NCBI GenBank assembly: GCA_963727485.1
Contig: CAVSGM010000002.1
Span: 198,854-262,853 of the forward strand
Source of the DNA: an uncultured delta proteobacterium
GTDB lineage: Bacteria; Myxococcota; Myxococcia; SLRQ01
Length of the DNA stretch: 64,000 nt
Direction: 5' to 3'
Of the stretch, positions 4,270 through 30,856 are shown piece after piece; position 1 is the first letter of the stretch, and every line of letters begins with the position of its first letter. The position numbers and the translations under genes are program-made. The notes under the pieces were generated by a model. That model worked only from the letters and a program-made list of their open reading frames with translations. It was not told the origin of the DNA and did no database searches.

Positions 4270-7555
<3,286 letters not shown>

Positions 7556-8038: not shown

Positions 8039-10545
8039 GTGCCCGGATCGGAGCTCGCGGGCCTCATCGGCCCCCTCCGGTTCGCGAGCCGGAACGACTT
8101 CGCCGGGGTGGAGCGGCTCCGGGGCTTCGAGGCCCTGGTGCGGGCCCGGGTCGAGGCGGCCCGGCGTGCCGGCGAGGCCGACGCGGCCCTCCTCGAGGCG
8201 CTCACCGAGGGGGTGAGGGGCTTCGACGGCAAGGATGCCGCGGCCCGGGAGGCGGTGGTCCGGGAGGTGGTGGCGCTCCTGGGGCGACACCTGGCGCTGC
8301 CGGCGGAGCTGGGCGCGCTGGCAGGGCAGGGGGCCGCGGCGCCCGCGAAGGCGGCGGTGGGGCCGAGGCCAACAGCGCCCGCGAAGCTCGCACCGCCCGC
8401 GTCCGCGTCCCACGCCCCGCACCTGGCCCGGGACGCCAGCCACGCCGGCGACGCCGCCCTCGCCGCCGCCGTCTCCACCCTCCCGGGGGTGGGGCCGAGC
8501 CGGGCCCACGCCTTCGAGGCCCGGGGGGTGGCCACGGTCGCCGACGCCCTCTGGTTCCTCCCGGTCTCCTGGGAGCGCCGGGTCCACGCCGGCCGCATCG
8601 CCGACCTGACCCACGGCACCAAGGCCGTCGTCGCCGGCACCGTGGAGACCGCCGGCGAGCGCTTCCTCGGGGCGCGGCACCGGAAGGTCTTCGAGGCCCT
8701 GGTCACCGACGGCACCGGCCGGGTCCGGGTGCGCTACTACCATCGCGCCGGGTGGGTGGCCCGCCGGCTCACCTCGGGCGCCCAGGTGGTCCTCTCGGGG
8801 CCGGTGCGCAAGGGCTACGGAGGTCTCCTGGAGATGGCGCACCCGGAGCTCCTCGAGCCCGAGGCCGTGGACGGAGACGAGGCCGACGAGGTGATCCCCC
8901 GCTACCCCGAGGTCGAGGGCGTGCCGCCGCGGACGGTGCGCCGGGCGGTCGCCGCGGCGGTGGTCCACGCCGACGCCCTCCCCGATCCCCTGCCCCCGGA
9001 GGTGGTGGCGCACCGGGGCCTGATGACCCCCGGGGCCGCGCTCCGGGGTCTGCACCTGCCCCCGCCCGGGACCCCGGTGGCGGCGCTCAACGAGGGGCGC
9101 ACCGACGCCCACCATCGCCTGGTCTACGAGGAGTTCTTCTTCCTCCAGCTCGGCCTGGCCCTGAAGGCCCGGGGGGTGAAGCTCGCACGGGGCATCGCCT
9201 TCCCGGTGGGGCCCGCGGAGGTGGAGGCGGCCCTGGAGGCGCTGCCCTGGCCTCCGACCGGGGCCCAGGGTCGGGTGGTCGAGGAGATCGCCGCCGACAT
9301 GGCCCGGGCCCAGCCCATGAACCGCCTCCTCCAGGGCGACGTGGGCTCGGGGAAGACCGCCGTCGCCGCGGTGGCGCTCTCGCTCGCCGTGGGCGCCGGG
9401 TGGCAGGGGGCGGTGATGGCGCCCACCGAGCTCCTCGCCGAGCAGCACGCCGCCACCCTCACCGGGCTCCTGGCGCCTAGGGGATCCGGGTGGTCCGCCT
9501 CTCCGGGAGCCTCGGGGCCGCCGCGCGGCGCCAGGTCCTCGCCGCCATCGCCGCTGGGGAGGCCCAGGTCGTCGTCGGGACCCACGCCCTGATCCAGCAG
9601 GGCGTCGAGTTCCACCGCCTGGGCCTGGTGGTGGTCGACGAGCAGCACCGCTTCGGGGTGCGCCAGCGCATGGAGCTGATGGAGAAGGGGACCCGCCCGG
9701 ACGTCCTGGTGATGACCGCGACCCCCATCCCCCGGACCCTCGCCATGACCGCCTACGGCGACCTGGATCTCTCGGTCCTCGACGAGATGCCCCCCGGGAG
9801 GACGCCGGTCGCCACCAAGCTCTACCGGGCCCAGGCGCGAGAGAAGGTCTACGACGTCATCCGCCGGGAGGTCGGCAAGGGCCACCAAGCCTACGTGGTC
9901 TACCCCTTGGTGGAGGTGAGCGAGAACCTCGAGGACGTCCAGGCCGCCACCGAGGCGGTGGCCCACCTCCAGGCCGAGGTGTTCCCGGAGCTGACCCTCG
10001 GTCTCCTCCACGGGAAGATGCCGCCGGCGGAGAAGGACCAGGTCATGGGCGCGTTCGCCGCCGGGCGCGTCGACGTCCTGGTGGCCACCACGGTCATCGA
10101 GGTGGGGATCGACGTCCCCAACGCCTCGGTGATGGTCGTCGAGCACGCCGAGCGCTTCGGCCTCTCCCAGCTCCACCAGCTCCGGGGCCGGGTGGGGCGG
10201 GGCGCCGCCAGGAGCTACTGCCTCCTGGTCGCCGAGGAGGTGAAGGGTGAGCGGGTGCGGGAGCGCCTCCGGGTCATGGAGGCGACCACCGACGGCTTCC
10301 GCATCGCCGAGGAGGACCTGCGCATCCGGGGCCCCGGGGAGATCCTGGGGACGCGCCAGAGCGGGCACCCGGACCTCCTCTTCGGGAACCTGGCCCGGGA
10401 CCGGGCGCTCCTCGCCCAGGCCCGGGGCGACGCCTTCGCCCTCATCGAGGCCGACCCCCACCTCCAGGCCCCGGGACACCACCGGGCGCGGATCGAGGTG
10501 GTGGCGCGGTGGGGCGGGCGGATCTCGTTGGGGCAGGTGGGCTGA
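8039..10545 (+). CDS. recG: ATP-dependent DNA helicase RecG, split by a frame change near 9475-9495
   Basis: N-terminal part in ORF 8039..9592 (Walker A GDVGSGKT, ...LAEQHAATLTGLLAP); C-terminal part in ORF 9490..10545 (VVGTHALIQ...DEQHRFGV...TATPIPRTL...LHQLRGRVGRG). The downstream frame has an in-frame TAG at the junction. Confidence 0.85.
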
Positions 10546-10574
10546 AGGGCGCCGCCGCTGGTAGAGTGGGCGCC

Positions 10575-10961
10575 GTGATCACCTGTCCCGTCTGCGAGCA
10601 TCCCCAGGCCCAGGGCACCGAGTGCGACGTCTGCGGCCGTCGCTTCCCCTCGGACCTGGTCCAGTCCGCCGGCCACGTCGATCCGCCCGCCGAGGTGGTC
10701 CCCGGCCTCGAGCTCACGGCGGTGGTGGCCCCCTCGGCGCCGACCCCGGCCCTGGCCGCCAACGCCCCCTGCGTCTGGTGCGGCCACGTCCAGGCCGAGG
10801 GCCGGATTCTGCGACCGCTGCGGGATGCAGCGCCACCGGGGAGAGCGCCTCGAGACGTCCGCGGCGGCCCCTGGCGACGAGGCGCCCGTGTGCCCCGAGT
10901 GCGGCCACCCCGCCGAAGGGACGCGGTGCCGCAACTGCGGGGGCCGGCTCCCGGAGGGCGC

Positions 10962-10965
<4 letters not shown>
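10575..10965 (+). CDS. Small triple zinc-ribbon protein (three CxxC-N8-12-CxxCG units), frame change near 10803
   Basis: VITCPVCEHPQAQGTECDVCG / CVWCGHVQAEGR[shift]FCDRCG / CPECGHPAEGTRCRNCGG; third unit and the stop are in a second frame; stop overlaps the thrC start. Confidence 0.5.
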
Positions 10966-12281
<1,316 letters not shown>

Positions 12282-13118
12282 TCGGCGCCGGGTCGGGATT
12301 CCGCTTCGGGAACCTGGGGGTAGGGCGACAGCCTCGCGTGTCACGTGATGGGTGTTCGGTATGTCCGGTCGTCACCGGACGCCGGGTGTGGCGTGCGGCG
12401 ACGCCGGAGGACGCTGCGGGGGCACCGGCGCCGGCGCGGGCGATCATCGTGCCGGCGGACGCCCCTTCCCCGATCCCCGGCCGACGGGATCGCGGCCGAC
12501 GGACCGGACGCCGGGTCTCCGCCGTGGACCCCTTCGGGCACCACGTGAGCGACGCCGCACAAGCCACGATTTCGTCGTGGAAATCACCCTCGGGGCGAGG
12601 GGGTGTCGAGGGGGCCGCCACGCGCTGTCGGCGACGGGACGGGTGCCCCCCCTGTCGCAGCGGACGGGCGGCGCCACGGTGGCGTCACCCGTGGGGGCCC
12701 ACAACGCCGGGGTGCATCTCGACCCACATTTCAAAGCACGAGAACGTGCTCCTCGCCGTCGTGACGCGGCGCACCCGATCACTTCGCGTCACCGGTTCGA
12801 CACCGCCCGCACCGCGTCTGCGCGCTGTCGTGCCCATTTTTCGCGGGCTGAAATGCGGTCGCTTGACGGGTCGGATCCGAGCGTGCTTGTGTGGCCGACG
12901 CTTTGAGGTCACGAGGGGGCAATCGTCGGATGCAGGATGGGGCAACGTCGCCTTTGGCGGCGTCCGGCGGGGGCCACCGAAGGGCCGAGGGGCAGCGGTC
13001 GTGCGGGGGGCGTGCGACACGCTAGGGCTGTGCCGCAACGTGCAGGTGCGGTCCCCGTGATTCCTGATCCTGTTCCCGTTCCAGTTCCTGTTGCAGCGGA
13101 AGTTCCCGGAGGTCGGTC

Positions 13119-16100
13119 ATGCGCATCACCCGTCGGTTCACGGTCGAGGGGGGCTCGCCCTACGACGCGTTCGAGTTCGTCGCGCGTACCAGCGAGATCC
13201 GCGATCCAGGCGGCAAGGTCGTCTTCCGGGCCGAGGACGTCCTGGTCCCCGAGCACTGGTCGCAGGTGGCCACCGACATCCTGGCCCAGAAGTACCTGCG
13301 CAAGGCCGGCGTCCCCGCGGTGGTGAAGCCCGTCGCCGAGAAGGGCGTCCCCAGGTGGCTCCAGCGCCGGGCGCCCGATGCCAAGGCCCTCGAGGCCCTC
13401 CCCGAGGCCGAGCGCCTCGGCCCCGAGCGCGACGCCCGGCAGGCCTTCGACCGCCTCGCCGGCACCTGGACCTACTGGGGCCACAAGCACGGGTACTTCG
13501 ACGGCGAGGACGACGCCCAGGCCTTCTACGACGAGCTGCGGTGGATGCTGGCGCGGCAGATGTGCGCCCCCAACTCGCCCCAGTGGTTCAACACCGGCCT
13601 CCACTGGGCCTACGGCATCGACGGGCCGCCCCAGGGCCACTGGTACGCCGACCCCAAGACCGGCGAGCTCAAGCGCTCCGAGAGCGCCTACGAGCACCCC
13701 CAGCCCCACGCCTGCTTCATCCAGTCCGTCGGCGACGACCTGGTGAGCGAGGGGGGCATCATGGACCTGTGGACCCGGGAGGCGCGCCTGTTCAAGTACG
13801 GCTCCGGGACCGGGACCAACTTCTCGGCGCTCCGGGGCGAGGGCGAGCCGCTCTCCGGCGGCGGGCGCAGCAGCGGCCTGATGAGCTTCCTCAAGATCGG
13901 CGACCGCGCCGCCGGGGCCATCAAGAGCGGCGGCACCACCCGCCGGGCCGCCAAGATGGTCTGCCTCGACCTCGACCACCCGGACATCGAGCAGTTCGTG
14001 GACTGGAAGGTCAACGAGGAGCAGAAGGTCGCCGCCCTGGTGGCCGGCTCCAAGGCCTGCTCGGTGAACCTCACCGCGGTCATGGCCGCCTGCCACACCG
14101 ACACCGTCGCCGGCGACGACCGCTTCGATCCCGAGGCCAACGCGGTCCTCAAGGACGCCGTCCGCGCCGCCCGGAAGGCGTACGTCCCCGCCGCCTACAT
14201 CCAGCGCTGCATCCAGCTCGCCCGCCAGGGCTTCAGCGGGGTGGAGTTCCCGGTCTACGACACCGACTGGCAGTCCGAGGCCTACGTCACCGTCGCCGGC
14301 CAGAACTCCAACAACTCGGTGCGCATCCCCGACGCCTTCATGAAGGCGGTCCTCGAGGACGGCAAGTGGGTCCTCACCCGGCGCACCGACGGCAAGGCGG
14401 CCAAGACCCTCGAGGCGCGCGACCTCTGGGAGCGCATCGCCTCGGCGGCCTGGAGCTGCGCCGACCCGGGCCTCCAGTTCGACTCCACCATCAACGCCTG
14501 GCACACCTGCCGCCCCGACGGGCGGATCAAGGCGTCGAACCCCTGCTCCGAGTACATGTTCCTCGACGACACGGCCTGCAACCTGGCGTCGGTGAACCTC
14601 ATGACCCTGGTCGACGCCGAGGGCAACTTCGACGTCGAGGGGTTCCGCCACGCCATCGAGGTGTGGACGGTGGTCCTCGAGGTCAGCGTCCTCATGGCCC
14701 AGTACCCGAGCCGGGCCATCGCCGAGCGCTCCTACTGGTACCGGACCCTGGGGCTCGGCTACGCCAACCTCGGCGCGGTGCTCATGCGCCTCGGGCTCCC
14801 CTACGACAGCGACGCCGGCCGGGCCTTCTGCGGGGCGGTGAGCGCCGTCCTCACCGGCACCGCCTACGCCACCAGCGCCCGGATGGCCGCCGAGCTCGGG
14901 GCCTTCCCCCGCTACGACGACAACGCCGAGGCGATGCTCCGGGTCATCCGCAACCACCGGCGCGCCGCCTACGCCGCCGCCGACGCCGACTACGAGGACC
15001 TCGAGGTTCCGCCGGTGGGCCTCGACGCCCGCCGCGCCCCCAAGGCGCTCCTCTCCGCCGCGCGCAACGCCTGGGACGAGGCCCTCGAGCTCGGCGAGGC
15101 CCACGGCTTCCGCAACGCCCAGGCCACCGTGATCGCCCCCACCGGGACCATCGGCCTGGTGATGGACTGCGACACCACCGGCATCGAGCCCGACTTCGCC
15201 CTGGTGAAGTTCAAGAAGCTCGCCGGCGGCGGGTACTTCAAGATCATCAACCAGTCGGTGCCCCCGGCCCTCACGCGCCTCGGGTACTCCGACGCCCAGG
15301 TCGCCGACATCGTCGCCTACGTGAAGGGCACCGGCACCCTGAAGGGCGCCCCGGGGGTGAGCCAGGCCGCCCTCAAGGAGAAGGGCTTCACCGACGCCGA
15401 CCTCGCCCGGGTCGACCAGGCCCTGGCGTCGGCCTTCGACATCACCTTCGCCTTCAACCGCTGGACCCTCGGCGACGCGCTGGTCACCGGCCGCCTCGGC
15501 GTCCCCGAGGACGAGCTGGCCCGGCCCGACTTCGACCTCCTCGCCTGGCTCGGCTTCGAGGCCGAGGACGTCCGGGCCGCCTCGGACCACGCCTGTGGGA
15601 CCATGACCATCGAGGGGGCGCCGCACCTCGACGAGGCGCACCTGCCCATCTTCGACTGCGCCAACCGGTGCGGCCGCTACGGCAAGCGCTTCATCGCCGC
15701 CGACGCGCACATCAAGATGATGTCCGTGGCCCAGCCGTTCATCTCCGGCGCCATCAGCAAGACCATCAACATGCCCGCCGAGGCCAGCGTCGAGGACGTG
15801 AAGCACGGCTACCTGCTGTCCTGGCGCCTGGGGCTCAAGGCCATCGCCCTCTACCGCGACGGCTCCAAGCTCTCCCAGCCCCTCTCGGCCACCTGGGCCC
15901 TCGAGGACGTGGACGACGAGGCGCTCCCGGTGGCGGCCGTGGCCTCGCCCGAGGAGGCCGCCGAGCGCATCGTCCTACGCTACCTCGCCCGGCGCCACCG
16001 CCTCCCACACCGGCGCGGCGGCTACACCCAGAAGGCCATCGTGGGCGCCCACAAGGTCTACCTGCGCACCGGCGAGTACCAGGACGGGCAGCTCGGCGAG

Positions 16101-16739
16101 GTGTTCATCGACATGCACAAGGAGGGCGCCGCCTTCCGGAGCCTGATGAACTCCTTCGCCATCGCCGTGAGCCTCGGCCTCCAGTACGGCGTGCCCCTCG
16201 AGGAGTTCGTCGAGGCCTTCGTCTTCAGCCGCTTCGAGCCCAACGGCATCGTCGAGGGCAACGACCGGATCAAGATGGCCACCAGCGTCATCGACTACAT
16301 CTTCCGGGAGCTGGCGGTGACCTACCTCGGGCGCAACGACCTGGCCCACGTCCAGGAGGAGGACCTGCGCCACGACGCCATCCACCGCGCCGAGGCCGAG
16401 CCCGAATACGAGGAGGAGGTCGTCCTCGAGGCGGGCGGGGCCCCGATCCCCATCCGCCACGCCCGGGCCTCCGAGGTCGTCGCCAGCGCGGTGGCCGGCG
16501 GGGCCACCCAGGTGGCGGCCGCGGGGAGCCAGGTGGCGGCCGGGGGGAGCCAGGTCCGGGCCGTCTCCGGGGGCCGGCGCGTGGCACCTCGGGGCGGCCA
16601 GCGCCTGGACGCCATCGCCGTGGCCCGGGCCCAGGGCTACGAAGGCGAGCCCTGCTCCGAGTGTGGCCAGATGACCATGGTCCGCAACGGCACCTGCCTC
16701 AAGTGCGTGAGCTGCGGCTCGACCTCGGGCTGCAGCTGA
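13119..16739 (+). CDS. nrdJ: Vitamin B12-dependent (class II) ribonucleotide reductase
   Basis: 1206-aa ORF; [21 protein letters not shown]...[21 protein letters not shown]...; C-terminal CSECGQ...CLKCVSCG zinc-finger tail; RBS GGAGG. Confidence 0.9.
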
Positions 16740-16813
16740 CGCGCGCCGGTCGTCTCCACCGGTCGCCGGGCGCCGTTGCGACCTGGCGACCGGTGCACTA
16801 GCATCCGCCGCCC

Positions 16814-17612
16814 ATGGCCGACGACAGACCCCGGATCCGCGTGGAGCGCCGCCACCAGGGCAAGGTCGCCCTGGTGGTCGTCGATTGCCCCGAGGTCCAC
16901 AACGCCCTGGACCTGGCGGCCATGGACCAGCTCGCCGCCGCGGTCGCCGGGCTCGGCCGGGACGGCGACCTGTTGGCGGTGGTGGTCACCGGCGCCGGCG
17001 AGAAGGCCTTCGTCTCCGGGGGTGATTCTCAAGGACCTCCACGGGGTCCGGGAGCACGCCGCCGCCCTGCGCATGGCCGAGACCATGGGCGGGGCGCTCG
17101 CGGGCCTCTCGGCCCTCCCGGTGCCGGTCATCGCCGCGGTCAACGGCCACGCCTTCGGCGGCGGGTGCGAGCTCGCCGTGGCCTGCGACTACCGGATCGC
17201 CGGCGACCACGTGCGCTTCGGGTTCCGGGCGGTGAAGTTCGGGGTCATGGGCGGGTGGGGCGGCACCACCCGGCTCCTGCGGATCATCGGCCGCTCCCGG
17301 GCGCTGAAGCTCCTGGTCACCGGCGAGGACCTCGACGCCGCCACCGCCCTGGACATCGGCCTCGTCGACGAGGTGGTCCCCCAGGGCGCGGTCCTCGAGC
17401 GGGCGCTGGCCTTCGCCTCGGAGATTGCCGCCGGCTCGCCGCTGGCGGTCAGGGCCACCAAGGAGGCCCTCCACGCCGCCGAGGACCTCGACTTCGACGA
17501 CGCCCGGGCCCTGGAGGCCGAGCGCTTCGCCGAGACCTGGGTGAGCGAGGACCACGCCGAGGCCCTGGCCGCCTTCCGCGCCGGAAGGCCCCCGAAGTGG
17601 CGGGGGCGGTGA
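16814..17612 (+). CDS. Enoyl-CoA hydratase/isomerase (crotonase) family protein, frame change near 17025-17040
   Basis: N-term KVALVVVDCPEVHNALD...VVTGAGEKAFVSGGD in ORF 16814 frame; continuation LKDLHGV...AAVNGHAFGGGCELAVACDYRIA... in ORF 16776..17612 frame; sequence reads ggtgattctc where ggtgatctc is expected. Confidence 0.8.
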
Positions 17613-29500: not shown

Positions 29501-29618
29501 GTCCGGCGCTCTAGCACCGGCGGCAGGCTCCGTAAAGCGCCGCCCCCCGCCGCCGCGCCGGCCGCCCGCGGCGCGCCGTTGACCCGCCGCAGCGCGTCAA
29601 ATACCCTCCGTCCCGCCC

Positions 29619-30856
29619 ATGGCGCTCCTGGTCCAGAAGTACGGCGGCACCTCGGTCGGGTCCGTCGACCGCATCCTCAACGTCGCCCGCCGGTGCCTCG
29701 CCGCCCGGGCGCGTGGCGACGACGTCGTGGTGGTGGTGAGCGCCATGGCCGGGGAGACCAACCGGCTGCTGGGCCTGGTCTCGGAGATCACCCCCCGGCC
29801 CGCGGAGCGCGAGCAGGACGTGGTGGTCTCCAGCGGCGAGCAGGTGAGCGTGGGGCTCCTGGCCCTGGCCATCCACAGCCTCGGGGGCAAGGCCCGCAGC
29901 TTCCTCGGCCACCAGATCCGCATCCTCACCGACTCGGCCTTCTCCCGGGCGCGGATCCAGGCCATCCAGGCGGACAAGCTCTACGAGGCCCTGGAGCGGG
30001 GCGAGATCGCCGTGGTCGCCGGCTTCCAGGGCGTCGACGACGCCGGGAACATCACCACCCTGGGCCGCGGGGGCTCGGACACCTCGGCGGTCGCGCTCGC
30101 GGCCGCGGTGGGCGCCGACGCCTGCGAGATCTACACCGACGTCGACGGGGTGTTCACCACCGACCCGGGCATCTGCCCGGCGGCGCGGAAGCTCGAGCGG
30201 ATCTCCTACGAGGAGATGCTCGAGCTGGCGAGCCTGGGGGCCAAGGTCCTCCAGATCCGCTCGGTCGCCGCCGCCATGATTCACAACGTGCCGCTCTGGG
30301 TCCGGTCGTCGTTCAACGACGACCCGGGGACCCTGGTGGCCGCGGAGGACAGCGCCGTGGAGCAGCTCGTCGTTTCCGGCATCGCCTACGATCGCCACCA
30401 GGCCAAGATCGCCGTCCGCCGGGTGCCCGACACCCCGGGCGTCGCCGCGGCCCTCTTCGACGCCCTCGCCGAGGAGGGGGTGGTGGTCGACATGATCGTC
30501 CAGAACGCCTCGCGTGGAGGGGCACACCGACGTCACCTTCACCGTGCGCGAGGACCGACCTCGATCGGGCCAAGGAGATCGTCGACCGGGTCGCCGCCGA
30601 GCTCGGCGCCGGCTCGGTGGAGACCGACGACCGGATGGCGAAGGTCTCGGTGGTCGGGGTGGGGATGCGGACCCACGCCGGCGTGGCCGCGCGGATGTTC
30701 CACACGCTCTCGCAGGAGAACATCAACGTCCAGATGATCTCCACCTCGGAGATCAAGGTCTCGGCGGTCATCGACGAGAAGTACGTCGAGCTCGCCGTCC
30801 GCTCCCTCCACACGGCCTTTGGCCTCGACGCCGCGCCGGCGACCCCGGCGGCCTAG
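29619..30856 (+). CDS. lysC: Aspartate kinase, two frame changes about 35 nt apart near 30515-30560
   Basis: [15 protein letters not shown]...[12 protein letters not shown]...; ACT-domain tail [13 protein letters not shown] / [12 protein letters not shown]...[23 protein letters not shown]...ISTSEIKVS spread over three frames. Confidence 0.85.

What the first reader, a model, noticed from the sequence alone, without database searches (positions are those of the whole stretch)
10575..10965. Small triple zinc-ribbon protein encoded immediately upstream of, and overlapping, thrC
Three tandem CxxC-N(8-12)-CxxCG units in about 130 aa, with the stop overlapping the thrC start (translational coupling). 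No function is assignable from sequence; the tight coupling to threonine synthase is unusual.
Basis: partly seen in the sequence, partly recalled or inferred. Interest (0 to 1): 0.4.

Follow-up and report, generated by a model that had tools for sequence, protein, structure and literature searches.

The report
Frameshifted triple zinc-ribbon gene before thrC
A small, uncharacterised protein with three zinc-binding knuckles, found only in myxobacteria, is encoded just before threonine synthase with an overlapping stop and start; here the gene is split by one extra base that is most likely an assembly error, so the finding is real but fairly ordinary.

Summary
The 129-aa triple zinc-ribbon ORF exists only after one base is removed. 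As written, frame A (10575 to about 10806) holds ribbon 1 and half of ribbon 2. Frame B (10807-10965) holds the rest. One T of the TT at 10807-10808 is extra relative to an intact 79%-identical ortholog. Uncorrected, frame A runs without a stop into thrC, giving a 590-aa ORF.

The same window has frame-breaking indels in carB, recG, an enoyl-CoA hydratase gene and probably aspartokinase. All 12 cysteines are kept. An assembly error is therefore the best reading.

The gene belongs to a stand-alone family: 489 clusters at 50% identity, and every named genome hit but one apparently mislabelled record is Myxococcota. Members share three Cys4 ribbons, disordered linkers carrying a [GDE]L[ED]xT motif, and a weak Pfam DZR match.

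thrC lies within 15 nt downstream in 50 of 78 informative loci, with a 4-nt stop/start overlap in 33. In the window the thrC Shine-Dalgarno sequence sits in the last codons of the zinc-ribbon gene. In 20 loci thrC is absent while the gene stays next to recG, so a dedicated ThrC role is unproven.

Function is most likely a zinc-dependent binding adaptor. Interest is low to moderate.

The parts
10575..10965 (+). znr gene: 129-aa triple zinc-ribbon protein. GTG start, TGA stop, interrupted by one extra T.
   Evidence: Frames A and B. GC3 frame switch. Intact 129-aa ortholog P0001/L001 at 79% aa identity. dN/dS is 0.41 upstream and 0.47 downstream of the indel, and all 12 Cys are kept.
10584..10637 (+). 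Zinc ribbon 1, CPVCEHPQAQGTECDVCG, in frame A
   Evidence: Family consensus MIxCPVCEHxQxxGxECxVCGK. AF2 pLDDT about 90.
10698..10718 (+). Linear motif VPGLELT in the disordered linker. This is the family motif [GDE]L[ED]xT, present in 1-4 copies in relatives.
   Evidence: P43, L45 and T48 are invariant in alignment A1. Motif counts come from 75 family members.
10770..10824 (+). Zinc ribbon 2, CVWCGHVQAEGRICDRCG, split between frames A and B by the extra base. It is the most conserved block of the family (CRYCRNVQxxGxxCDRCGM).
10807..10808 (+). TT dinucleotide in which one T is extra (1-nt insertion, the frameshift site)
   Evidence: Pairwise DNA alignments with L001: GGATTCTGC against GGA-TCTGC. 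tblastn shows the frame change at 10807-10811.
10891..10941 (+). Zinc ribbon 3, CPECGHPAEGTRCRNCG, in frame B
   Evidence: Pfam DZR best stretch covers residues 102-127.
10953..10957 (+). GGAGG Shine-Dalgarno-like sequence for thrC, embedded in the last codons of znr (P-E-G-A)
   Evidence: Sequence read directly. An SD-like motif lies upstream of thrC in 30 of 50 thrC-adjacent loci, against 3 of 20 loci without thrC.
10962..10965 (+). GTGA: the thrC start codon GTG overlapping the znr stop codon TGA
   Evidence: The same 4-nt overlap (ATGA, GTGA or TTGA) is seen in 33 of 50 adjacent loci.
10962..12281 (+). thrC, threonine synthase, 439 aa, with its own N-terminal Cys4 ribbon
   Evidence: TIGR00260 at 226.7 bits against a cut-off of 167.1. 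PALP E=2e-61. 93.6% aa identity to the L001 ThrC.
8039..10545 (+). recG, the upstream neighbour (29-nt gap to znr), itself broken by a 1-nt deletion near 9476
   Evidence: tblastn with M. xanthus RecG changes frame at 9481-9541. Indel at 9476 relative to L001.

Best explanation
**What it is.** The locus encodes a member of an uncharacterised, stand-alone protein family whose named genome hits are all Myxococcota apart from one apparently mislabelled record. The M. xanthus member is ABF87441.1, annotated 'conserved domain protein / DZANK-type domain-containing protein'. The protein is a string of three Cys4 zinc ribbons. They are joined by Pro/Ala/Glu-rich disordered linkers that carry a conserved short linear motif, VPGLExT.

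**Genomic setting (shown).** The gene sits in a conserved housekeeping string, greA-recG-(pcm)-znr-thrC. In the window the thrC Shine-Dalgarno sequence (GGAGG) and start codon lie inside the last codons and the stop of znr (GTGA). This is the standard layout for termination-reinitiation coupling.

**The frameshift (shown and inferred).** The single extra T at 10807/10808 is shown. That it is an assembly or sequencing indel and not biology is inferred. The real organism then makes an intact 129-aa protein, not a ZnR-ThrC fusion.

**Function (inferred).** It is most likely a zinc-dependent binding adaptor that acts through its ribbons and linker motif. Its partner is unknown and is not necessarily ThrC.
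For: **The frameshift is an artefact**
- One extra base relative to the intact ortholog L001.
- The five other members of the short-form clade are intact: L001, L085/P0003, L086/P0002, L088/P0004 and L005.
- All 12 Cys are kept, and dN/dS is similar upstream (0.41) and downstream (0.47) of the indel.
- The window carries further frame-breaking indels in core genes. These are carB at about 4806 and recG at about 9476, an enoyl-CoA hydratase at about 17030-17080, and probably aspartokinase at about 30520-30540.

**It is a real, conserved gene**
- 105 related genome loci; every named one but a single apparently mislabelled record is Myxococcota.
- 489 clusters at E<=1e-3 and 281 at E<=1e-10. Nearly all are 130-200 aa stand-alone proteins.
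- Invariant Cys positions and motifs.

**Architecture**
- The AF2 model shows three knuckles with disordered linkers and pTM 0.29.
- Pfam DZR scores 30.1 bits against a cut-off of 27.3.

**Coupling to thrC**
- thrC is within 15 nt in 50 of 78 informative loci, with a 4-nt overlap in 33.
- An SD-like motif is present in 30 of 50 adjacent loci against 3 of 20 non-adjacent loci.
Against: - No reads are available, so a genuine mutation in this strain cannot be excluded.
- No experiment or informative domain fusion supports any particular binding partner. The adaptor role rests on architecture alone.
- The tight and widespread overlap with thrC could reflect a specific ThrC-related function, which this explanation leaves open.
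- The DZR score is only just above the Pfam cut-off, and other family members fall below it (P0026 at 21.6 bits).
Confidence: 0.6

Rival explanations
1. The zinc-ribbon protein is a dedicated partner of threonine synthase. It might be a regulator, an assembly or zinc-delivery factor for ThrC's own N-terminal Cys4 ribbon, or a scaffold. Translational coupling would set its stoichiometry with ThrC.
For: The znr-thrC pair is kept at 30-35% protein identity across Myxococcus, Corallococcus, Archangium, Cystobacter, Hyalangium and the window's own clade. thrC is within 15 nt in 50 of 78 loci and overlaps by 4 nt in 33. In Archangiaceae recG has left but pcm-znr-thrC stays together. ThrC here starts with its own Cys4 ribbon.
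Against: In 20 of 78 loci thrC is absent from the flank while znr stays next to recG and a conserved 242-aa downstream gene. When the pair was broken, znr did not travel with thrC. No ZnR-ThrC fusion proteins appear among the top 150 family representatives. The neighbouring genes are functionally unrelated, so this is a housekeeping string.
Confidence: 0.2
2. The frameshift is a genuine mutation in this organism. The gene would then be a fresh pseudogene, or the cell makes a threonine synthase with an N-terminal extension: ribbon 1, half of ribbon 2, 52 out-of-frame residues, then ThrC.
For: As written, frame A runs with no stop from 10575 (or 10509) into thrC, giving a 590-aa ORF. No read data are available to rule it out.
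Against: Three other genes in the same 64 kb carry demonstrated 1-nt frame breaks, including core genes carB and recG, and aspartokinase probably does too. Simultaneous loss of these is implausible for a free-living bacterium. There is no decay downstream of the indel. All relatives are intact. In a genome of 72-76% GC, 150 nt of off-frame sequence lacking a stop is unremarkable.
Confidence: 0.08
3. The protein works with RecG in DNA repair or recombination, for example as a zinc-ribbon nucleic-acid-binding accessory. Its link to thrC would be incidental.
For: recG lies upstream within 4 kb in 61 of 78 informative loci and directly adjacent (gap of 40 nt or less) in 13. That group includes most loci that lack thrC. 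In the window the gap is 29 nt. Zinc ribbons often bind nucleic acids (general knowledge).
Against: In 17 loci recG is absent from the upstream flank (Archangiaceae). A pcm methyltransferase gene is usually inserted between recG and znr (48 of 57 thrC loci). The linkers are acidic and there is no basic patch typical of DNA binders. No homology to known RecG partners was found.
Confidence: 0.1
4. The frame change is a programmed +1 ribosomal frameshift, or the ORF is a regulatory leader peptide for thrC.
For: A frame change inside a gene just upstream of a biosynthetic gene, with ATT (a rare codon at this GC content) at the shift site.
Against: The shift is absent from every relative examined, including the 91.5% nt-identical L001. 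There is no 0-frame stop or known slippery heptamer at the site. There are no Thr/Ile codon runs (6 Thr and 2 Ile in 129 aa). No terminator-like hairpin lies between 10300 and 12800 and there is no Rfam hit. The product is a conserved folded zinc protein, not a leader.
Confidence: 0.02

Closest known systems
Pfam PF12773 DZR (double zinc ribbon; 'DZANK-type' domain) and related PF13240/PF13248 zinc-ribbon domains
   Same: Tandem CxxC-x(8-12)-CxxC knuckles. The corrected protein passes the DZR gathering score, 30.1 bits against 27.3.
   Different: DZR is a generic structural module with no assigned function. This family has a fixed three-ribbon, stand-alone architecture with a linker motif and a myxobacterial distribution. 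Several members score below the DZR cut-off.
M. xanthus DK1622 ABF87441.1 'conserved domain protein' (187 aa) and its orthologs
   Same: Same family: E=1e-8 to the corrected protein and about 34% identity. It has the same three ribbons, the same motif, and the same position before thrC with a 4-nt overlap.
   Different: The window's clade is a short form (129-137 aa) with one copy of the [GDE]L[ED]xT motif instead of three. It also lacks the pcm gene between recG and znr.
GltJ / ZitP-type ZnR domains (M. xanthus focal-adhesion switch; PMC11135422)
   Same: A myxobacterial Cys4 zinc ribbon followed by a flexible linker that carries a binding motif, used for protein-protein switching. This is a model for how the protein could work.
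   Different: The GltJ ribbon has about 19 residues between knuckles (C5, C8, C28, C31), a GYF domain and a membrane anchor. Here the spacing is 8-9 residues, there are three ribbons, and no other domain is present. No sequence homology was shown.
RanBP2/NZF-type zinc fingers (Nup153, TAB2, ZRANB2)
   Same: Individual ribbons superpose on these 25-30-residue fingers at rmsd 1.2-1.6 A. These fingers bind proteins (Ran, ubiquitin) or ssRNA.
   Different: Foldseek E-values are all 0.9 or higher. Pfam zf-RanBP was not among the hits. The resemblance is generic to two-knuckle zinc ribbons.
LysW amino-group carrier protein (small zinc-ribbon protein in amino-acid biosynthesis operons)
   Same: A small Cys4 zinc-ribbon protein encoded within an amino-acid biosynthesis context, with an acidic C-terminal region.
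   Different: The protein does not hit the LysW profile. There is no conserved C-terminal EDWGE-type tail. The recurrent E-x-A ending is plausibly imposed by the embedded thrC Shine-Dalgarno sequence. No ArgX/LysX-type ligase is nearby.

Membership tests
Pfam DZR (PF12773) | Whole-protein score at or above the curated gathering score (27.3 bits) | tested here: met
   30.1 bits, E=5.6e-7 for the frame-corrected protein. The margin is small, and relatives P0026 and P0059 score 21-22 bits.
Myxococcia stand-alone triple zinc-ribbon family (ABF87441.1-like) | Three Cys4 units at conserved positions, with N-terminal MIxCPxCE and the signature CxxCGM(Q/R) in ribbon 2 | tested here: met
   All 12 Cys, plus G76, G83, M84 and R88, align with family-invariant columns. 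phmmer E=3.5e-63 to P0001 and 1.3e-8 to the M. xanthus protein.
Myxococcia stand-alone triple zinc-ribbon family (ABF87441.1-like) | [GDE]L[ED]xT linear motif in the linker between ribbons 1 and 2 | tested here: met
   One copy, VPGLELT, at residues 42-48. 74 of 75 family members have at least one copy.
Myxococcia stand-alone triple zinc-ribbon family (ABF87441.1-like) | Intact single reading frame | tested here: not met
   One extra T at 10807/10808 splits the ORF. This is judged an assembly artefact because carB, recG and ECH are also frameshifted, and ask probably is.
Translationally coupled gene pair (termination-reinitiation) | Stop of the upstream ORF overlaps or abuts the start of the downstream ORF, with a Shine-Dalgarno sequence inside the upstream ORF | tested here: met
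   GTGA at 10962-10965 and GGAGG at 10953-10957. The layout is conserved in 33 of 50 adjacent loci. Actual coupling of translation cannot be tested with these tools.
LysW-type amino-group carrier protein | Match to the LysW zinc-ribbon profile (PF21344) and a conserved acidic C-terminal tail ending in Glu | tested here: not met
   PF21344 is absent from the hits at E<=1 for the zinc-ribbon protein. C-termini vary: PEGA, PEAS, QEEA, PAAE and others.
Threonine-operon leader peptide / attenuator | Short ORF rich in Thr/Ile codons followed by a terminator/antiterminator | tested here: not met
   129 aa with 6 Thr, 2 Ile and no runs (translation). No terminator-like site between 10300 and 12800. 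No Rfam family.
Programmed +1 ribosomal frameshift (prfB-like) | Shift site conserved among orthologs, with a 0-frame stop or hungry codon plus a stimulatory element | tested here: not met
   All relatives are in a single frame. There is no 0-frame stop at the site.
GltJ/ZitP-type ZnR | Single Cys4 ribbon with about 19 residues between knuckles, adjacent to a GYF domain or membrane module | tested here: not met
   Spacing here is 8-9 residues and there is no GYF or transmembrane segment. GltJ features are taken from PMC11135422.
Threonine synthase (TIGR00260), for the downstream gene | Score above the equivalog cut-off | tested here: met
   226.7 bits against 167.1.

The most novel reading that the evidence does not exclude
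The zinc-ribbon protein is a lineage-specific subunit or regulator of threonine synthase in Myxococcia. For example, it could dock through its ribbons or its GLExT motif onto ThrC, whose N-terminus has its own Cys4 ribbon, and tie threonine synthesis to zinc or redox status or to another pathway. The hard-wired stop/start overlap would then set a fixed stoichiometry.
Probability: 0.15. Interest if true: 0.5.

Novelty: new member of a known kind. Interest (0 to 1): 0.22.

Why it matters
**Practical.** The raw sequence would be annotated as a 570-590-aa 'threonine synthase' with a spurious N-terminal extension. This window carries at least four demonstrated frame-breaking indels and probably a fifth, so every gene call from this assembly needs frameshift-aware handling.

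**Biological.** The work defines a coherent, fairly large and entirely uncharacterised protein family: 489 clusters, with three Cys4 ribbons and a linear motif. Every named genome hit but one apparently mislabelled record is myxobacterial. The gene sits at a conserved position between recG and thrC. If it proved to be a ThrC partner, it would be a new accessory factor for a textbook enzyme. If not, it is one more small zinc-ribbon adaptor of unknown partner.

Tried and rejected
- **Methylation-motif error.** The window's insertion and L001's own recG frameshift both turn GATC into GATTC. However, GATC is not depleted in the window (341 observed, 376 expected). This is treated as coincidence.
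- **GC3-phase segmentation.** An attempt to count frameshifts across the whole window was too noisy at this GC content. It was replaced by checking Pfam-domain continuity on selected candidates.
- **Exact-DNA search of JGI metagenomes.** A search for the window's own lineage found nothing. The follow-up protein-seeded scan gave 9 loci, only one of them from the short-form clade.
- **PDB searches.** The sequence-profile search and Foldseek on the AF2 model returned only generic zinc knuckles (MetRS, bL32, Spt4, Nse1, RanBP2/NZF). Profile-search E-values were all 0.013 or higher, and no Foldseek match had E <= 0.001.
- **NCBIfam.** No family matched the zinc-ribbon protein.
- **Informative fusions.** The only long hit, P0090 (1317 aa), is a generic poly-zinc-ribbon protein.
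- **Literature.** Searches for the M. xanthus accession, and for zinc ribbon, threonine synthase, Myxococcus, MXAN and recG, found no characterisation.
- **Rejected readings.** The leader-peptide, LysW and programmed-frameshift readings were tested and rejected (see the membership table).

Full report

The region between the recG stop (10545) and thrC does not contain a single 130-aa ORF as written. Frame A, starting at GTG 10575, reads MITCPVCEHPQAQGTECDVCG...CVWCGHVQAEGR. It then degenerates into Arg/Pro-rich sequence and continues without a stop into thrC. ORF listing therefore reports one 590-aa ORF at 10509-12281.

Frame B (+1) reads ...FCDRCGMQRHRGERLETSAAAPGDEAPVCPECGHPAEGTRCRNCGGRLPEGA* and ends at TGA 10963-10965. 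Third-position GC is high in frame A up to about 10800, in frame B from about 10800 to 10965, and in frame A again inside thrC.

A six-frame scan finds complete CxxC-x(8-12)-CxxCG units at 10584-10637 (frame A) and 10891-10941 (frame B). The only other CxxC...CxxC match in all six frames of the 64-kb window is the NrdJ C-terminus at 16653-16715. The pattern is therefore far from chance. The middle ribbon is split by a frame change.

**2. The frame change is one extra T and is most likely an assembly error.**

A search with the corrected protein found an intact 129-aa ortholog, P0001, at 79% identity and full coverage, plus other intact relatives. Its contig, L001, is 91.5% identical in DNA to the window over 12.4 kb and has the same gene order.

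The alignment shows a single indel inside the gene: window GGATTCTGC against L001 GGA-TCTGC. One T of the TT at 10807-10808 is extra. Removing it gives ...AEGRICDRCGMQ... and a 129-aa protein with Cys4 units at residues 4/7/17/20, 66/69/79/82 and 106/109/118/121.

Several observations point to an artefact:
- dN/dS against L001 is 0.41 upstream and 0.47 downstream of the indel, and all 12 cysteines are retained. There is no decay after the break.
- The same window has other 1-nt frame breaks. These are carB at about 4806 and recG at about 9476, and an enoyl-CoA hydratase gene with ECH_1 profile positions 3-60 in one frame and 75-250 in another. Aspartokinase probably has one too, with AA_kinase plus a truncated ACT domain in one frame and the remaining ACT region in another.
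- L001 has its own frameshift in recG, at a different place.

A free-living bacterium that had lost carB, recG and ask together is implausible. An indel-prone assembly is the economical reading.

A programmed +1 frameshift is rejected. The shift is absent from every relative and there is no 0-frame stop or slippery site. A methylation-motif error was also considered, because both the window's and L001's frameshifts are GATC to GATTC. GATC is not depleted in the window, however.

**3. What the gene is.**

Pfam gives only the generic 'double zinc ribbon' DZR, at 30.1 bits against a cut-off of 27.3. NCBIfam gives nothing. A PDB profile search and Foldseek give only generic zinc knuckles, none significant.

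The AF2 model shows three small beta-knuckles (pLDDT about 90, 72 and 66) joined by disordered linkers, with pTM 0.29. It is beads on a string, not a globule.

A profile search of 1.84 billion representatives finds 489 clusters at E<=1e-3 and 281 at E<=1e-10. Nearly all are 130-200-aa stand-alone proteins aligned end to end. The one long hit is a generic poly-ribbon protein.

The genome scan found 105 loci. Every named one is Myxococcota, apart from a single apparently mislabelled record: Myxococcus, Corallococcus, Pyxidicoccus, Citreicoccus, Archangium, Cystobacter, Hyalangium, Vitiosangium, an Anaeromyxobacter MAG and many uncultured Myxococcia. The M. xanthus member is ABF87441.1, 'conserved domain protein / DZANK-type domain-containing protein'. 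I found no literature on it.

The family consensus has these parts:
- Ribbon 1: MIxCPVCEHxQxxGxECxVCGK.
- One to four copies of a linear motif, [GDE]L[ED]xT, in an acidic Pro/Ala-rich linker.
- Ribbon 2, the most conserved block: CRYCRNVQxxGxxCDRCGMRLPR.
- Ribbon 3: CxxC...GxxCxxCG.

The window belongs to a short-form clade (129-137 aa, one motif copy) together with L001, L085, L086, L088 and L005.

**4. The link to thrC.**

The downstream gene is a bona fide threonine synthase: TIGR00260 at 226.7 bits against a cut-off of 167.1. Its GTG start (10962-10964) overlaps the znr stop (10963-10965), and a GGAGG lies at 10953-10957, inside the last znr codons.

| Context in 82 non-redundant loci (78 informative for thrC) | Loci |
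|---|---|
| thrC starts within 15 nt of the znr stop | 50 |
| of those, 4-nt ATGA/GTGA/TTGA overlap | 33 |
| thrC 16-250 nt away | 7 |
| thrC 1.2 kb away | 1 |
| thrC absent from at least 1.5 kb of downstream flank | 20 |
| downstream flank too short to tell | 4 |

An SD-like motif precedes thrC in 30 of 50 adjacent loci. It occurs at the znr 3' end in only 3 of 20 loci without thrC. This probably explains the recurrent E-x-A C-termini.

The arrangement is thus the norm in this class, not an oddity of this genome. The evidence for a functional link is nevertheless limited:
- The wider string is greA-recG-(pcm)-znr-thrC, a run of functionally unrelated housekeeping genes.
- recG lies upstream in 61 of 78 informative loci.
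- Where thrC is missing, znr stays directly after recG and before a conserved 242-aa gene. That gene is also near thrC in 22 thrC-containing loci, so thrC left and znr stayed.
- In Archangiaceae the reverse happened: recG left and pcm-znr-thrC stayed.
- No ZnR-ThrC fusions were seen.

**5. How it most likely works.**

*Shown:*
- A conserved, selectively constrained small protein gene with 12 invariant Cys in three ribbon units.
- Disordered linkers carrying a conserved linear motif.
- In the window, a stop/start overlap with thrC and an embedded Shine-Dalgarno sequence.

*Inferred:*
- The protein binds three Zn ions and acts as a binding adaptor, using its ribbons and the linear motif to contact partner protein(s) or possibly nucleic acid.
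- thrC translation is coupled to znr translation by termination-reinitiation.

The M. xanthus GltJ ZnR-linker switch (PMC11135422) is a useful functional analogy. It is not a homolog, since its knuckle spacing and domain context differ.

I give about 0.6 to this overall reading, with the frameshift as an artefact. The alternatives are:
- About 0.2 to a dedicated ThrC partner.
- About 0.1 to a RecG-related role.
- About 0.08 to a genuine mutation or fusion.
- About 0.02 to programmed frameshifting or a leader-peptide role.

**6. Novelty and verdict.**

The protein is a new member, in a short-form clade, of an existing but uncharacterised family of DZR-type zinc-ribbon proteins already present in databases as 'hypothetical' or 'conserved domain protein'. 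'Unusual' does not hold within Myxococcia, and a role in threonine synthesis is unproven. Interest is low to moderate at 0.22. The most novel surviving reading, a lineage-specific ThrC accessory subunit, has a probability of about 0.15.

Noticed in passing
window 4795-4810 (carB): carB (carbamoyl-phosphate synthase large subunit) changes frame here. The window lacks one base relative to L001 (GGGGG-GGG against GGGGGCGGG). tblastn places residues 1-70 in one frame and 74-990 in another.
   Followed up: yes
window 9470-9545 (recG): recG is split into two frames (ORFs 8039-9592 and 9490-10545). There is a 1-nt deletion relative to L001 at about 9476 (GGCG-CCTAG against GGCGCCCGAG).
   Followed up: yes
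window 16802-17609: The enoyl-CoA hydratase gene is frameshifted near 17030-17080. ECH_1 profile positions 3-60 are in one frame and 75-250 in another.
   Followed up: partly
window 29583-30850: The aspartokinase gene (AA_kinase plus ACT domains) appears frameshifted near 30520-30540, with the first ACT domain truncated at the frame change. This is another threonine-pathway gene in the same window, but it is not adjacent to thrC.
   Followed up: partly
window 12282-13118: An 840-nt spacer lies between thrC and the class II ribonucleotide reductase gene (nrdJ, 13119-16739). It has no Rfam match, is rich in indels relative to L001, and has one terminator-like hairpin at 12820-12833. Its function is unknown.
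   Followed up: partly
L027 (BNCN01000016.1, labelled Comamonas sp. KCTC 72670): This record carries a recG-znr-thrC locus whose ZnR and RecG are about 83% identical to those of Myxococcus xanthus. The record is probably mislabelled or contaminated.
   Followed up: no
L001:5189-5193 and window 10807: L001's own recG frameshift and the window's znr frameshift are both a T inserted into GATC (GATC to GATTC). GATC is not depleted in the window (341 against 376 expected), so this is probably coincidence. It could still hint at a basecalling artefact.
   Followed up: partly
L014, L025, L031, L044, L059, L060, L069-L073, L076, L077, L084 and others: In 20 loci thrC is missing between znr and a conserved 242-aa gene. 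A homolog of that gene also lies within the fetched locus in 22 thrC-containing loci. thrC was evidently lost or relocated from an ancestral recG-znr-thrC-X order.
   Followed up: partly
window 10965-11080 (ThrC N-terminus): ThrC begins with its own Cys4 ribbon (FQCLRGCEG...YRCPSCGG). Four zinc ribbons are therefore encoded in a row across the znr-thrC junction.
   Followed up: no
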